IMG/VR virus record: IMGVR_UViG_3300028911_000051
Span: 1-4,544 of that record
Length of the DNA stretch: 4,544 bases
Direction: 5' to 3' (one strand)
From: a virus
Taxonomy: Duplodnaviria; Heunggongvirae; Uroviricota; Caudoviricetes
In this document: piece by piece, positions 316 to 4,544 of the stretch
Layout of the letters: each line of letters opens with the position of its first letter
Position numbering within the stretch: the first letter of the stretch is position 1
Notes under the pieces: generated by a model
Database searches by the model: none
What the model was told of the DNA's origin: nothing
The model's input: only the letters and a program-made list of their open reading frames with translations
Translations under genes and position numbers: made by a program

Positions 316-350
316 AAAACGCAAAAAGCCCCGAGATATTAACTCAGGGC
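316..350 (-). terminator. Intrinsic terminator about 30-65 nt downstream of the pR' start (tR'-like, Q-regulated)
   Basis: Minus strand GCCCUGAG (350..343), loop UUAAUAU, CUCGGGGC (335..328), i.e. an 8-bp stem with one G-U pair, followed by UUUUUGCGUUUU (327..316). On the + strand the same hairpin is followed by TTTATTT, so it may work in both directions. Confidence 0.7.
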
Positions 351-374
351 TTTATTTAACGAGTGCATTTATCC

Positions 375-416
375 ATCGTTGATGTCAAATTTACCCAACT
401 TTATTCAAAAAGTCAA
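375..416 (-). promoter_or_regulatory. Late promoter pR' with qut-type elements (Q-binding region between -35 and -10; pause-inducing -10-like element in the initial transcribed region)
   Basis: Minus strand TTGACT (416..411), 17-nt spacer, TAAATT (393..388), then TGACATC and AACGAT (380..375). AACGAT is the -10-like pause element described for lambda pR'. Located 40-80 nt downstream of the Q stop, as in lambda. Confidence 0.75.
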
Positions 417-2503: not shown

Positions 2504-3027
2504 GCCGCCCTCCTGACGCCCTGCCCGATCGCCATCAATGCCGCTTTGGATACGGTAGTAAACATCCGTCGAGGACTGATGAACGGTCGCCAAATCAGCA
2601 GCATGGAACCTTTGCTGTTTCCCTTCTTCTCCAGCCCTGTCGATGGTTCGATAAAATTAATCCGTCCATCAGTGATAATACGAACTTCGTCAACACTCTC
2701 CAGAGCATTGCTGAACCATCCGACAGACATATCCTCTGGCACAAGCATCACTACCGTCTGTCGCTGTTGTATGCACTGCTCAGCGGCTTTTTCCACCCAC
2801 GGCCTGATATTGCTGTACGGTGGGTTATTCCAGATTGCACCGTGGCTTACCCACTCAGAATTGAGCGCGTCGTCGGCCTCAGTTAACCAGTGAGCGCACA
2901 GAGCATTTTTGTCGCTCGCTGCCGAATCCAGCCAGAATCCAAACTCAATATCCAGCGCATCAAAAAGCCAAAGCGGCGTTTGCCAGCAGTCCTTGTCGTG
3001 TGCTGGCGTATTTGATTTGATAGTCAT
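2500..3027 (-). CDS. Phage Dam-family DNA N6-adenine methyltransferase (orphan)
   Basis: 175 aa from ATG 3027..3025, which overlaps the ninB stop (ATGA) and has an AGGGAAGG SD. N-terminal D..WQTP..LF motif and the NPPY catalytic motif (motif IV of N6-adenine methyltransferases) are present. Occupies the ninC slot. An alternative start at 3054 inside ninB is possible. Confidence 0.88.
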
Positions 3028-3470
3028 GCAGCCTTCCCTTTTCGTTGTGACCATTCATACTCTCGCCGGGAGTCATCACTCCACCGCACTTTGCGCTCTG
3101 AGCCGAACCAGAACATGATTTCGATAAGCTCAGTCATGCTGGCCTTTCGCATTTTGCTGGTACGCACGCCAAGCATGACAACGCCACCGTCGATACCAGG
3201 CACACTTCGTTGCTCCAGTTTTTTGGTCTTAAGCCACAGGGCAGTGAACAGGTCTTTCCAGTCTTCCGGCGCCAGCCGTTGACCATGCCATAGCACCTGA
3301 CGCGAAACATCGTTCAGCATCGGCCACATACGGTCATTCTGCGCTTTGCTGCGTTTGGGTTCTCTAACGTGGACTTCGTGAGGTGACTTGTCGTCGATCG
3401 GAAGTGAGAGTATTGCGTCTATGGCGTTGTTTCTGATTGCTTCGTTGCGAAGCATGTATATTTGCTTCAT
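3024..3470 (-). CDS. ninB: NinB (Orf-family recombination mediator)
   Basis: 148-aa ORF (lambda NinB is of similar length) with the conserved core ...QN...W..L.DVSRQV.WHG... and C-terminal ...R.W...GSERKVRWSD... recognisable as NinB, though diverged from the lambda protein. ATG at 3470..3468 with GAGG SD 6 nt upstream. Confidence 0.9.
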   Translation of the reverse strand: MKQIYMLRNEAIRNNAIDAILSLPIDDKSPHEVHVREPKRSKAQNDRMWPMLNDVSRQVLWHGQRLAPEDWKDLFTALWLKTKKLEQRSVPGIDGGVVMLGVRTSKMRKASMTELIEIMFWFGSERKVRWSDDSRREYEWSQRKGKAA

Positions 3471-3477
3471 CGTTACC

Positions 3478-3684
3478 TCAACTCACAAAACGCCACGCCA
3501 CTTTTGCTACGACAACAGGCATAACACCGATAATCACCCACAGGAAAATGCTACCGAAAAGCACACCCACCAGGTCTTTACCTTCGCCTAACAACCGGAC
3601 AAAACTGCTGGCAACCACAATGAACGTCGCCACCATCCACATAGCACCGAGAATCCTCAATGCAGAAAAAATCAACTCAACCAC
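3478..3684 (-). CDS. Small predicted inner-membrane protein (68 aa, two hydrophobic helices), unknown function
   Basis: GTG start at 3684..3682 preceded by a strong SD GGGGGAGGG (3699..3691, 6-nt spacer). Two hydrophobic stretches (about residues 13-32 and 39-61). The stop overlaps the ninB SD. No family recognised. Confidence 0.55.
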   Translation of the reverse strand: MVELIFSALRILGAMWMVATFIVVASSFVRLLGEGKDLVGVLFGSIFLWVIIGVMPVVVAKVAWRFVS

Positions 3685-3700
3685 GATCTACCCTCCCCCA

Positions 3701-3731
3701 AATAAAAAGGCCTGCGATTACCAGCAGGCCT
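3701..3731 (-). terminator. Intrinsic terminator downstream of the helicase gene (tR2-like position)
   Basis: Minus strand AGGCCUGC (3731..3724), loop UGGUAAUC, GCAGGCCU (3715..3708), a perfect 8-bp GC-rich stem, followed by UUUUUAUUU (3707..3701). Unidirectional, because the + strand has no T-tract after the stem. Confidence 0.65.
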
Positions 3732-3759
3732 GTTACAAGCTCAGTGATGTAGATGGTCA

Positions 3760-4544
3760 TCAGAATCCTCCTTTCTTCTTGGACTGCGGTTCCTCGCGTT
3801 CACGGCGGCGCATTTCAGCAGACTGTTGGTCTGTGTCATAAATAGCGCCATTTGCCTGAATGCAATACACCGTGCCGGTATTGCCATGACGATTGAGACG
3901 AAGGATTAGTTCGGTTTCACCAGGTGGAACACTGTCATCAAAAGCACCTTCACGATGGATCCCCACCCAATAATCGCAATCCTGTTCAATCTGCCCTGTA
4001 TCTCGTGAGTCACTTGGTAATGGGCGTTTATTGGTTCGGCTTTCCAGTGCGCGGTTAAGCTGTGTCAGAAGCACAACAACGCAATCAAGCTCTTTGGCAA
4101 GGTTCTTCAGTCCTTTGGTGATCATGCCGTAAGCAAGGTCGTTGCGATCGGCCTTTTCAGCGGTCATTAGTGTCAGGTAATCGACCAGAATCATGCCAAC
4201 GCATCCTTTTTCTCGCTTGATTCGACGGCTTTCGCTGACGATTTGAGCCAGAGATAATCCCGGCGTGTCGTCGATGTAAAGCAGGTCGATTTCACTCAAG
4301 CGATTGGCTGTTTCGATCGCCCTGTTGAAGTCACCATCGTAATCACCCTGATAGCCGTCATCAGCGTCATTTGTCGCCGGAAGGTAAAAAATATTCGGGT
4401 TAACACCTGACTTCTGTCCTACCAGTTTTTCCAGTATCTGATCACCTGGCATTTCAAGGCTGAACATCAGAGCGGGCTTTTTCTCATGCACTGCGCAGTT
4501 GATTGCCATCTGGCTGTATAGCGTCGTTTTCCCCATCTTAGGGC
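3760..4544 (-). CDS. DnaB-family replicative DNA helicase, C-terminal RecA-like domain (5' end of gene lies beyond the window end)
   Basis: ORF runs to the window edge. It shows ..GKTT (end of Walker A), ILVDYLTLM (Walker B/H2), LLTQLNR (H3 with arginine finger) and SRDTGQIEQDCD (H4-like), typical of DnaB and phage P22 gp12-type helicases. TGA stop at 3762..3760. Confidence 0.9.
   Translation of the reverse strand, partial: PKMGKTTLYSQMAINCAVHEKKPALMFSLEMPGDQILEKLVGQKSGVNPNIFYLPATNDADDGYQGDYDGDFNRAIETANRLSEIDLLYIDDTPGLSLAQIVSESRRIKREKGCVGMILVDYLTLMTAEKADRNDLAYGMITKGLKNLAKELDCVVVLLTQLNRALESRTNKRPLPSDSRDTGQIEQDCDYWVGIHREGAFDDSVPPGETELILRLNRHGNTGTVYCIQANGAIYDTDQQSAEMRRREREEPQSKKKGGF

What the first reader, a model, noticed from the sequence alone, without database searches (positions are those of the whole stretch)
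3478..3700. Unassigned two-TM micro-protein in the slot between the replication helicase and ninB
A 68-codon ORF with a very strong SD (GGGGGAGGG) and a GTG start sits where lambda carries ren and P22 carries ninA. This slot is known to hold accessory (moron) genes involved in exclusion or host modulation. The product is almost entirely two hydrophobic helices, which is typical of small membrane toxins, superinfection-exclusion factors or holin/antiholin-like modulators, and I cannot match it to a named family. It is the least explained coding element in the window.
Basis: partly seen in the sequence, partly recalled or inferred. Interest (0 to 1): 0.55.

Follow-up and report, generated by a model that had tools for sequence, protein, structure and literature searches.

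The report
Small two-helix membrane gene behind tR2
This is a real but uncharacterised 68-residue membrane protein gene that many lambda-like phages of E. coli and Salmonella carry just after a strong transcription terminator, so it should be made only during lytic growth; it is a common kind of phage accessory gene and its function is still unknown.

Summary
A 68-codon GTG-start ORF (3478-3684, minus strand) with a GGGGGAGGG Shine-Dalgarno encodes a helical hairpin with two hydrophobic helices. It is a real gene. All 88 copies (41 alleles) keep the frame. Relatives down to about 30% identity keep the size, a set of conserved residues (W16, W49, G53, P56, K61, W64) and the position after the replication genes, including in an Erwinia prophage. 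Only this frame is open in all divergent copies, and dN/dS is about 0.3.

A 27-codon ninA ORF (3677-3760) is also present and contains the intrinsic terminator tR2 (3700-3731). The ORF uses the SD that serves ninB in lambda. It has no promoter or terminator of its own, and its GC content matches its neighbours. It is therefore an optional insert in the early-right operon, expressed after N antitermination, and not a prophage-expressed moron.

Pfam, NCBIfam, PADLOC, PDB and BFVD give no match. It belongs to PHROG 1165 (function unknown), is always annotated "hypothetical", and occurs in about 8% of complete E. coli genomes.

My best guess is a lytic-phase inner-membrane protein that binds a conserved host membrane partner. 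The function is inferred only. The finding is ordinary in kind and of modest interest.

The parts
3478..3684 (-). orf68 coding sequence (68 aa; GTG start, TGA stop), giving MVELIFSALRILGAMWMVATFIVVASSFVRLLGEGKDLVGVLFGSIFLWVIIGVMPVVVAKVAWRFVS. TM1 is about codons 11-29 (3598-3654), the turn codons 30-38 (3571-3597), TM2 codons 39-60 (3505-3570) and the C-tail codons 61-68 (3481-3504).
   Evidence: identical to RefSeq WP_431431515.1, 'hypothetical protein'
3691..3699 (-). Shine-Dalgarno GGGGGAGGG (GGAGG core 7 nt from the GTG). It is homologous to the SD that precedes ninB in lambda. Most alleles read GGGGGAGAG.
3700..3731 (-). Intrinsic terminator tR2: stem AGGCCTGC / GCAGGCCT (3731-3724 and 3715-3708), 8-nt loop, then T-tract TTTTATTT (3707-3700). 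Hairpin energy is -15.7 kcal/mol.
   Evidence: Terminator scan and fold. The same element is annotated 'terminator tR2' in HK620 and 'terminator' in HK75. The lambda sequence is identical. Li et al. 2015 place lambda tR2 30 bp after the NinA AUG and measure TE of about 0.9.
3677..3760 (-). ninA micro-ORF (27 aa, MTIYITELVTGLLVIAGLFIWGRVDRG). Its ATG shares one base with the helicase TGA (TGATG). It contains all of tR2. Its TGA overlaps the first codons of orf68 (GTGGTTGA).
   Evidence: phrog_5907 E 9e-19; annotated NinA in HK630 and HK620; present in 85 of 91 loci, joined at its ATG to six unrelated upstream genes.
3760..4536 (-). 3' part of the DnaB-like replicative helicase gene (context; it runs off the window). 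Its stop codon lies 28 nt before the tR2 stem.
3024..3470 (-). ninB (Orf-family recombination mediator; context). Its GAGG SD overlaps the orf68 stop codon, and 7 nt separate that stop from the ninB ATG.

Best explanation
orf68 is a genuine, non-essential accessory gene of the early-right (pR) operon of lambdoid phages.

Shown:
- It encodes a 68-residue helical hairpin with two hydrophobic helices.
- Across the family, the two tails together carry about 3 Lys/Arg and the short turn is neutral to acidic. This fits an inner-membrane hairpin with both ends in the cytoplasm.
- The gene is a mobile unit fused on its 5' side to the tR2 terminator and the SD that serves ninB in lambda.
- It is packed against ninA upstream (start and stop overlap) and against the next gene downstream.
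- It has no promoter or terminator of its own.

Inferred from this anatomy and from published tR2 data:
- It is transcribed only when N-modified RNA polymerase reads through tR2. That makes it a delayed-early lytic gene that is silent in the lysogen.
- It is translated from the strong SD and/or by ribosomes terminating on ninA.

Inferred more weakly, at about 0.25-0.3:
- The residues kept down to about 30% identity cluster in TM2 and the C-tail (F47, W49, I52, G53, P56, K61, W64, plus W16 and a basic residue at position 10).
- I therefore expect it to bind a specific inner-membrane partner conserved between Escherichia, Salmonella and Erwinia, not to act as a generic membrane-damaging peptide.
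- My preferred outcome is protection of the infected cell during lytic growth: blocking DNA entry by superinfecting phage, or neutralising a membrane-acting abortive-infection or exclusion channel. This follows the logic of T4 Imm or lambda Ren without any homology to them.

The confidence figure below applies to the gene, protein and regulation part.
For: Gene is real:
- 88 copies in 41 alleles all keep 207 nt with no stops.
- Only this frame is open in 7 divergent copies.
- dN/dS is 0.34 shallow and 0.29-0.35 deep.
- ATG replaces GTG and TAA replaces TGA at the same positions in the Salmonella branch.
- 232 clusters, nearly all 68 aa.
- Distant 63-66 aa members keep W16, W49, G53, K61 and W64.

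Synteny: even at about 30% identity the gene lies after the replication genes and before NinB, NinX, NinF or Q, including in an Erwinia tracheiphila prophage.

Fold and topology: AF2 hairpin with pLDDT 84.8, hydropathy profile, charge tally, and the DeepTMHMM note in the Kapi1 record.

Regulation:
- 89 of 91 copies have the tR2 hairpin plus SD directly upstream.
- The identical element precedes ninB in lambda.
- tR2 is annotated as such in HK620.
- tR2 termination efficiency is about 0.9 in vivo and falls only about 10% when NinA is translated (PMC4824070).
- No promoter-like site was found.
- GC equals that of the flanks.

Optional cassette:
- Absent from lambda.
- About a quarter of the 2,863 ninA/tR2 modules in E. 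coli genomes carry it.
- Seven different upstream genes and several different downstream genes.
Against: - There is no expression, localisation or phenotype data for any member. The literature searches found nothing on this ORF.
- The codon-position pattern of variable sites in the close group is weak (15/10/20), and the phased antisense frame gives a similar dN/dS. The coding case therefore rests on the divergent copies.
- Conservation does not show a significant helical-face periodicity (p about 0.2), so a specific helix-helix interface is not demonstrated.
- The most distant members are not preceded by tR2, so terminator gating is a feature of the Escherichia/Salmonella branch and not of the whole family.
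- Lytic-only expression makes an exclusion role less obviously useful than for prophage-expressed Sie proteins.
Confidence: 0.7

Rival explanations
1. Membrane-damaging small toxin, in the manner of GhoT/OrtT or Hok/Gef/TisB-type peptides. The hairpin would oligomerise, depolarise the inner membrane, and kill or arrest the host.
For: It is very small and very hydrophobic (GRAVY 1.59), forms a two-helix hairpin, and has a GxxxG-like G40/G44 pair in the Escherichia branch.
Against: - No match to Pfam toxin families, even at E<=10.
- No antitoxin partner, antisense promoter or own promoter. The gene is translationally packed inside an operon.
- Residue-specific conservation of Trp, Gly, Pro and Lys down to 30% identity is more than a generic pore former needs.
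- G40/G44 is not conserved in the distant members.
- By inference from lambda holin biology, early depolarisation would trigger the holin prematurely and reduce burst size.
Confidence: 0.1
2. Lysis-timing modulator (holin-like, pinholin-like or antiholin) that interacts with the phage holin in the membrane.
For: It has two TM helices and is 68 aa, the size class of class II holins and pinholins. The prophage carries a lambda-family holin it could contact.
Against: - It lies in the early-right operon about 3.5 kb upstream of the lysis cassette, which has its own holin, endolysin and Rz genes.
- No holin family match.
- The C-tail is 8 residues with 2 basic charges, not the long charged tail typical of holins.
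- It occurs in phages with quite different genome types: HK022/HK75 siphoviruses, P22-like podoviruses and Stx phages.
Confidence: 0.08
3. Prophage-expressed moron giving superinfection exclusion or lysogenic conversion.
For: It is an optional insert between elements that are adjacent in lambda (tR2/SD and ninB). The neighbouring slot holds ren, an exclusion-related gene. Small inner-membrane exclusion proteins are well known.
Against: - No promoter-like site on either strand in 3000-4000 and no terminator of its own.
- It lies directly behind tR2 in a CI-repressed operon.
- Its GC is identical to that of the flanks.
- It is translationally coupled to its neighbours.
- No PADLOC match.
Confidence: 0.08
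4. Replication- or recombination-linked membrane factor, for example one that tethers or times the phage replication machinery at the membrane.
For: In every branch, including Erwinia, the gene follows the replication module and precedes ninB.
Against: - It is combined with at least four unrelated replication modules: two DnaB types, a Toprim-DnaB primase-helicase, and DnaC or lambda-P loaders.
- It is often separated from them by ren or other genes.
- It is followed by ninB in only about half of the loci.
- It is absent from lambda and from most tR2 modules.
- Its position is explained simply by operon order.
Confidence: 0.05
5. Not a protein-coding gene. On this reading the open frame is incidental to conserved non-coding DNA, such as a spacer or RNA element downstream of tR2.
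For: Within the close group the codon-position bias is weak, and the antisense frame scores a similar dN/dS.
Against: - The frame, the length and the start and stop positions are kept at 41-58% protein identity, where DNA identity is only about 52% in the N-terminal half.
- Every other frame acquires stops.
- Members at 30% identity share specific residues and synteny.
- No Rfam match in this region.
Confidence: 0.03

Closest known systems
PHROG 1165 (uncharacterised phage protein family): HK75 gp43, mEpX1_049, HK022_58, Stx2-86 gp69, Kapi1_027, RefSeq WP_431431515.1
   Same: Full-length match (E 3e-35, residues 1-68 of a 68-position profile), same size, and same position behind tR2.
   Different: Nothing differs; this is the family it belongs to. 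The family has no assigned function and no Pfam or NCBIfam model.
NinA of lambda, P22 and HK620 (27-aa micro-ORF containing tR2)
   Same: It is the immediate upstream neighbour, small and hydrophobic, in the same mosaic unit, and translationally overlapped with orf68.
   Different: It is a different ORF (3677-3760) and a different PHROG (5907).
T4 Imm (small early inner-membrane superinfection-immunity protein)
   Same: By analogy only: a small hydrophobic membrane protein made early in lytic infection from within an early operon.
   Different: No sequence or family match. No exclusion phenotype has been tested. The comparison rests on my own knowledge of T4, not on a test made here.
Class II holins and pinholins (for example S21 68 of phage 21)
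   Same: About 68 aa with two predicted TM helices.
   Different: Not in the lysis cassette, no holin family match, and no charged C-terminal tail.
GhoT/OrtT and Hok/Gef-type small membrane toxins
   Same: Small, very hydrophobic, one or two TM helices.
   Different: No family match, no antitoxin and no promoter of its own. Residue-specific conservation and operon embedding argue against a toxin-antitoxin arrangement.
Lambda Ren (resistance to Rex exclusion)
   Same: An accessory, non-essential gene in the same stretch between the replication genes and ninB.
   Different: Ren is a soluble 96-aa protein upstream of ninA/tR2. It co-occurs with orf68 in 28 of 91 loci, so the two are not alternatives.

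Membership tests
PHROG 1165 (function unknown) | Full-length match to the family profile | tested here: met
   E 3e-35, 121.8 bits, residues 1-68 on profile positions 1-68 of 68
NinA (lambda, P22, HK620) | 27-aa ORF that starts at the stop of the upstream gene and contains tR2 | tested here: not met
   That description fits the separate ORF at 3677-3760 (phrog_5907, E 9e-19; HK620 and HK630 annotation). orf68 is a different ORF downstream of it.
Moron (Hendrix-type accessory insert) | Inserted between genes or elements that are adjacent in related phages | tested here: met
   In lambda the tR2/SD element is followed directly by ninB; here orf68 lies between them. About a quarter of tR2 modules carry it.
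Moron (Hendrix-type accessory insert) | Own promoter and terminator allowing expression from the repressed prophage | tested here: not met
   No sigma-70-like site in 3000-4000 on either strand. The only terminator on its strand is tR2, which lies upstream of it. Its start overlaps the ninA stop, and its stop overlaps the ninB SD.
Moron (Hendrix-type accessory insert) | Base composition different from the surrounding genes | tested here: not met
   GC is 48.3% against 49-52% for the neighbours.
Holin / pinholin / antiholin | Match to a holin family model | tested here: not met
   No Pfam or NCBIfam hit at E<=10.
Holin / pinholin / antiholin | Encoded in the late lysis cassette next to the endolysin | tested here: not met
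   It lies in the early-right operon. The lysis cassette (lambda-family holin, glycoside hydrolase, Rz) is downstream of Q in the source prophage.
Holin / pinholin / antiholin | Two or more TM helices with a charged cytoplasmic C-terminal tail | tested here: inconclusive
   Two helices are present, but the C-tail is only 8 residues with 2 basic charges.
Small membrane toxins (Hok/Gef, GhoT/OrtT and similar) | Match to the family model | tested here: not met
   No Pfam hit at E<=10. By contrast, a true HOK_GEF gene is recognised in the Erwinia prophage at another position.
Small membrane toxins (Hok/Gef, GhoT/OrtT and similar) | Cognate antitoxin (antisense RNA or protein) and independent expression | tested here: not met
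   No promoter-like sites on either strand, no Rfam hit in the region, and the neighbours vary between loci.
Small membrane toxins (Hok/Gef, GhoT/OrtT and similar) | Growth arrest or membrane depolarisation on expression | not testable with these tools
   Needs an expression experiment.
Superinfection exclusion / anti-phage defence proteins | Match to a known defence or exclusion model | tested here: not met
   No PADLOC hit at E<=10 and no Pfam hit.
Superinfection exclusion / anti-phage defence proteins | Reduces plating or DNA entry of other phages | not testable with these tools
   Needs plating-efficiency and DNA-entry assays.
Lambdoid nin-region gene (early-right operon, N-dependent) | Located between the replication genes and Q, downstream of tR2, tightly packed with its neighbours | tested here: met
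   The packing matches the published description of nin regions (PMC8022706).

The most novel reading that the evidence does not exclude
orf68 defines an unrecognised class of lytic-phase membrane effector shared by lambda-like, P22-like and Stx phages. It would be a two-helix hairpin, released only after N antitermination at tR2. Through its conserved TM2 and C-tail residues it would bind a conserved host inner-membrane protein, either to block DNA entry by competing phages or to disarm a membrane-acting abortive-infection or exclusion channel. A related possibility is that the helicase-stop / ninA / tR2 / orf68 overlaps form a translation-sensitive gate that tunes how much transcription enters the nin region.
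Probability: 0.2. Interest if true: 0.55.

Novelty: new member of a known kind. Interest (0 to 1): 0.3.

Why it matters
The gene sits in prophages of roughly one in ten complete E. coli genomes, in many Stx2a-converting phages and in P22-like Salmonella phages, yet no function is recorded for it. If it does bind a host membrane protein during lytic growth, it would add a small and easily testable factor to the biology of Stx phage induction and phage-phage competition. The analysis also corrects annotation. HK620 leaves its copy uncalled, HK630 calls a truncated version, and lambda RefSeq and PGAP omit ninA. As it stands, this is an ordinary uncharacterised accessory gene with a well-defined regulatory context.

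Tried and rejected
- Family scans of orf68 and ninA against Pfam, NCBIfam and PADLOC at E<=10 gave nothing.
- Foldseek of the AF2 model against PDB and BFVD gave nothing below E=1. The top PDB hits, ATP-synthase c subunits at E about 6, reflect generic hairpin geometry and were discarded.
- Rfam found nothing in the region.
- RNA folding of the ninA-orf68 junction beyond the tR2 hairpin was not significant (z -1.49).
- The helical-periodicity test of conservation in TM1 and TM2 was not significant, so I dropped the 'conserved face' claim.
- The codon-position test in the close group was weak, and the antisense frame gave the same dN/dS. I replaced it with the six-frame test on divergent copies.
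- The 134-aa antisense ORF (3437-3841, plus strand) was rejected because it acquires stops in other alleles.
- The 'distant homolog' P0131/L090 was rejected as a bisulfite-converted assembly artefact.
- Five literature searches found nothing on this ORF. Cheng et al. 1995 (PMC1206672) is not held.
- I did not find locus tags in model EHEC strains that would have let me use published Ribo-seq data.
- A homo-oligomer prediction was not possible with the structure tool, which takes single chains of window-derived sequence only.

Full report
**1. What is in the window.** All genes lie on the minus strand and form a lambdoid early-right "nin" region. In order they are the 3' part of a DnaB-like helicase (3760-4536), a 27-codon ORF (3677-3760), the 68-codon ORF of the finding (3478-3684), ninB (3024-3470), an adenine methyltransferase, ninE, ninF, a DUF1364 gene, rusA, ninH and a Q-type antiterminator. 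The window is identical over orf68 to a prophage in E. coli GDSC2239PM. PGAP annotates the same series there, flanked by cI/cro/cII/O on one side and a holin/endolysin/Rz cassette on the other.

**2.
- orf68 starts with GTG (3684-3682) and stops with TGA (3480-3478).
- The SD GGGGGAGGG lies at 3699-3691, with its GGAGG core 7 nt from the start.
- Hydropathy shows two hydrophobic stretches (about residues 11-29 and 39-60) around the polar turn RLLGEGKD.
- AlphaFold2, run on a 20-sequence family alignment, gives a hairpin of helices 2-32 and 38-67 with mean pLDDT 84.8.
- The annotators of phage Kapi1 recorded a DeepTMHMM two-TM prediction for their 85%-identical copy.

**3. It is a real gene.** ORF length alone means little, since there are 48 ORFs of at least 30 aa in this window, most of them spurious.

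Shallow comparisons:
- 88 DNA copies in 41 alleles all keep 207 nt, the GTG start and an open frame.
- dN/dS is 0.34, and replacements are conservative (V, A, I, L, M, F).
- The codon-position signal is weak (15/10/20 variable sites), and the phased antisense frame gives a similar ratio. This evidence alone would not be enough.

Deeper comparisons settle the question:
- An exhaustive profile search of 1.84 billion representatives finds one full-length 50%-identity cluster, some fragments, and a few 63-66 aa relatives at about 30-38% identity.
- A profile search of the 90%-identity collection gives 232 clusters, nearly all 68 aa, including Salmonella members at 41-53% identity.
- The Salmonella branch has ATG and TAA exactly where the E. 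coli branch has GTG and TGA.
- In seven divergent copies only the annotated frame is open throughout, and deep dN/dS is 0.29-0.35.
- W16, W49, G53, K61 and W64 are invariant. R/K10, F21, D37, I52, P56 and V57 are nearly so. TM2 and the C-tail are better conserved than TM1.
- One apparent distant homolog (P0131/L090) is an artefact of bisulfite-converted reads and was excluded.

**4.
- The 27-codon ORF between the helicase and orf68 is ninA. It matches phrog_5907 and is annotated NinA in HK630 and HK620.
- ninA contains a canonical intrinsic terminator: an 8-bp stem with 6 G-C pairs, an 8-nt loop and the tail TTTTATTT, at -15.7 kcal/mol.
- HK620's record labels this element "terminator tR2", and HK75's labels it "terminator".
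- Lambda has the same sequence between ren and ninB. There it runs straight into GGGGGAGAGGGAAGTC-ATG, the ninB start.
Here orf68 is slotted between that SD and ninB, which has acquired a small SD overlapping the orf68 stop codon.
- Li et al. (PMC4824070) place lambda tR2 30 bp after the NinA AUG. They measure a maximal in-vivo termination efficiency of about 0.9, call the NinA initiation site "not weak", and find that NinA translation lowers termination by only about 10%.

**5. Slot tabulation across 91 loci.**
- 89 loci have the tR2 hairpin plus SD directly upstream of orf68, and 85 also have ninA.
- Six unrelated upstream genes join the shared DNA exactly at the ninA ATG: two DnaB-type helicases, a Toprim-DnaB primase-helicase, lambda Ren, a Ren-like protein and an 89-aa unknown.
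- In the HK022 type, an HNH endonuclease gene replaces the front of ninA and ends right at the hairpin.
- Downstream, ninB follows in about 40 loci, an unnamed "MDESRKQFEE..." family in about 50, and DUF7301 in the Salmonella phage checked, 103203_sal5.
- The only fixed linkage is therefore tR2/SD with orf68.
- Ren and orf68 co-occur in 28 loci, so they are not alternatives.
- The ninA/tR2 module occurs at 2,863 places in 1,965 of 5,426 complete E. coli genomes.
- The window-type orf68 allele is in 448 genomes, and the HK620-type allele is full-length in 228. About a quarter of the modules therefore carry it.
- It is present in 107 phage records, including HK75, HK630, HK022, mEpX1, mEp235, mEp213, HK620, H-19B, Kapi1, many Stx2a phages and P22-like Salmonella phages.
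- Distant members lie after the O/DnaC or lambda-P genes and before NinB, NinX, NinF or Q, including in an Erwinia tracheiphila prophage. They are packed by ATGA overlaps but are not preceded by tR2.

**6. How it most likely works.**

Shown:
- It is a small hairpin with two hydrophobic helices.
- The tails together carry about 3 Lys/Arg and the turn is neutral to acidic in all members. By the positive-inside rule this places both ends in the cytoplasm.

Inferred from anatomy and the tR2 literature:
- orf68 has no promoter-like site.
- It sits behind a roughly 90% terminator in a CI-repressed operon.
- Its composition matches its neighbours.
- Together these make it a delayed-early, N-dependent lytic gene and not a prophage-expressed moron.
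- Translation can start at the strong SD, and its start overlaps the ninA stop codon (GTGGTTGA), which allows coupling.

Weaker inference:
- Residue-specific conservation of Trp, Gly, Pro and Lys in TM2 and the C-tail across Escherichia, Salmonella and Erwinia suggests a specific, conserved membrane partner, not generic membrane damage.
- I favour a protective role in the infected cell, either exclusion of incoming DNA or neutralising a membrane-acting exclusion or abortive system, at roughly 0.25-0.3.
- The helical-face test was not significant, so an interface is not demonstrated.

**7. Comparison with what is known.**
- The ORF belongs to PHROG 1165, function unknown.
- Every public source calls it "hypothetical" or "membrane protein".
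- It fails family tests for holins, small toxins and defence proteins.
- It fails the positional test for holins.
- It meets the insertion criterion for morons but not the promoter, terminator or composition criteria.
- No fold match is significant.
- The literature searches found nothing specific. The nin-region literature describes ninA and the ATGA packing but not this ORF.

**8. Verdict.** This is a genuine, widespread, uncharacterised small membrane protein gene with a now well-defined regulatory setting. It is ordinary in kind, being one of many small accessory ORFs in nin regions. Interest is modest (0.3).

Noticed in passing
window 3677-3760 (minus) with 3700-3731: The ninA micro-ORF wholly contains tR2, and its hydrophobic core GLLVIAGLF is encoded by the hairpin and T-tract themselves. 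The helicase stop codon lies 28 nt before the stem. That is right at the roughly 27-nt distance beyond which Li et al. (PMC4824070) found a terminating ribosome no longer represses tR2. All six upstream gene types end within a few nt of the ninA ATG, so ninA may act as a spacer that keeps tR2 effective.
   Followed up: partly
L004 (HK022) 1541-2290; also L005, L061, L087: In the HK022-type arrangement an HNH endonuclease gene (HNH_3 plus AP2 domains) is inserted into ninA, and its TAA stop abuts the tR2 stem. By the Li et al. distance rule this should let ribosomes suppress tR2, so nin-region entry may be regulated differently in these phages.
   Followed up: partly
L039, about 100 nt upstream of its orf68 start: One viral contig has a tandem duplication of the tR2 hairpin arm (AGGCCTGCTGGTAATCGC repeated), in frame within ninA. 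Another (L038) has two extra G in the SD run, which truncates ninA.
   Followed up: no
L090 (Logan SRR13893411), protein P0131: This assembled contig is bisulfite-converted DNA. Every C of the conserved ninA/tR2 sequence reads as T, which produces a fake 'distant homolog'. Such artefacts are present in the large protein collections.
   Followed up: yes
L086 (MAG labelled Cellvibrionaceae) and L088 (MAG labelled Collinsella): Short contigs in these metagenome-assembled genomes carry orf68 at 94-98% identity to the E. coli phage gene. This almost certainly reflects mis-binned Escherichia phage DNA.
   Followed up: no
L094 (HK620 NC_002730) 1195-1401; L001 (HK630) 1665-1823; lambda NC_001416 40571-40651: There are annotation gaps. 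HK620 leaves its orf68 homolog (58% identity, GTG start) uncalled. HK630 calls a truncated 159-nt version. Lambda RefSeq and PGAP do not annotate ninA, although lambda has an intact 26-codon version whose TGA overlaps the ninB ATG.
   Followed up: yes
L094 1195-1401 compared with window 3478-3684 and L095 1501-1707: The HK620 allele of orf68 is an intragenic mosaic. Codons 1-40 are 84% identical in DNA to the Salmonella type and 52% to the window type. The C-terminal third (codon 41 onward) is 83% identical to the window type.
   Followed up: yes
window 3437-3841 (plus strand): A 134-codon antisense ORF spans the whole ninA/orf68 region. It is spurious: it is the mirror frame of a hydrophobic gene and acquires stops in other alleles and in divergent copies.
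   Followed up: yes
window 322-395: Downstream of the Q-like gene there is a two-way hairpin with T-runs (GCCCCGAG...CTCAGGGC) and a sub-threshold Rfam isrJ match (28 bits against a gathering score of 37). It probably belongs to the late-promoter leader and terminator region (the pR'/tR' equivalent).
   Followed up: no
L029, L032, L011 and about 50 other loci, starting 17 nt after the orf68 stop: An unnamed family of 83-138 aa, starting MDESRKQFEE and ending ...WQASRAAIE...IRAAGIKVKE, follows orf68 in about half of the loci. It has conserved ends, a highly variable middle, and no Pfam match.
   Followed up: partly
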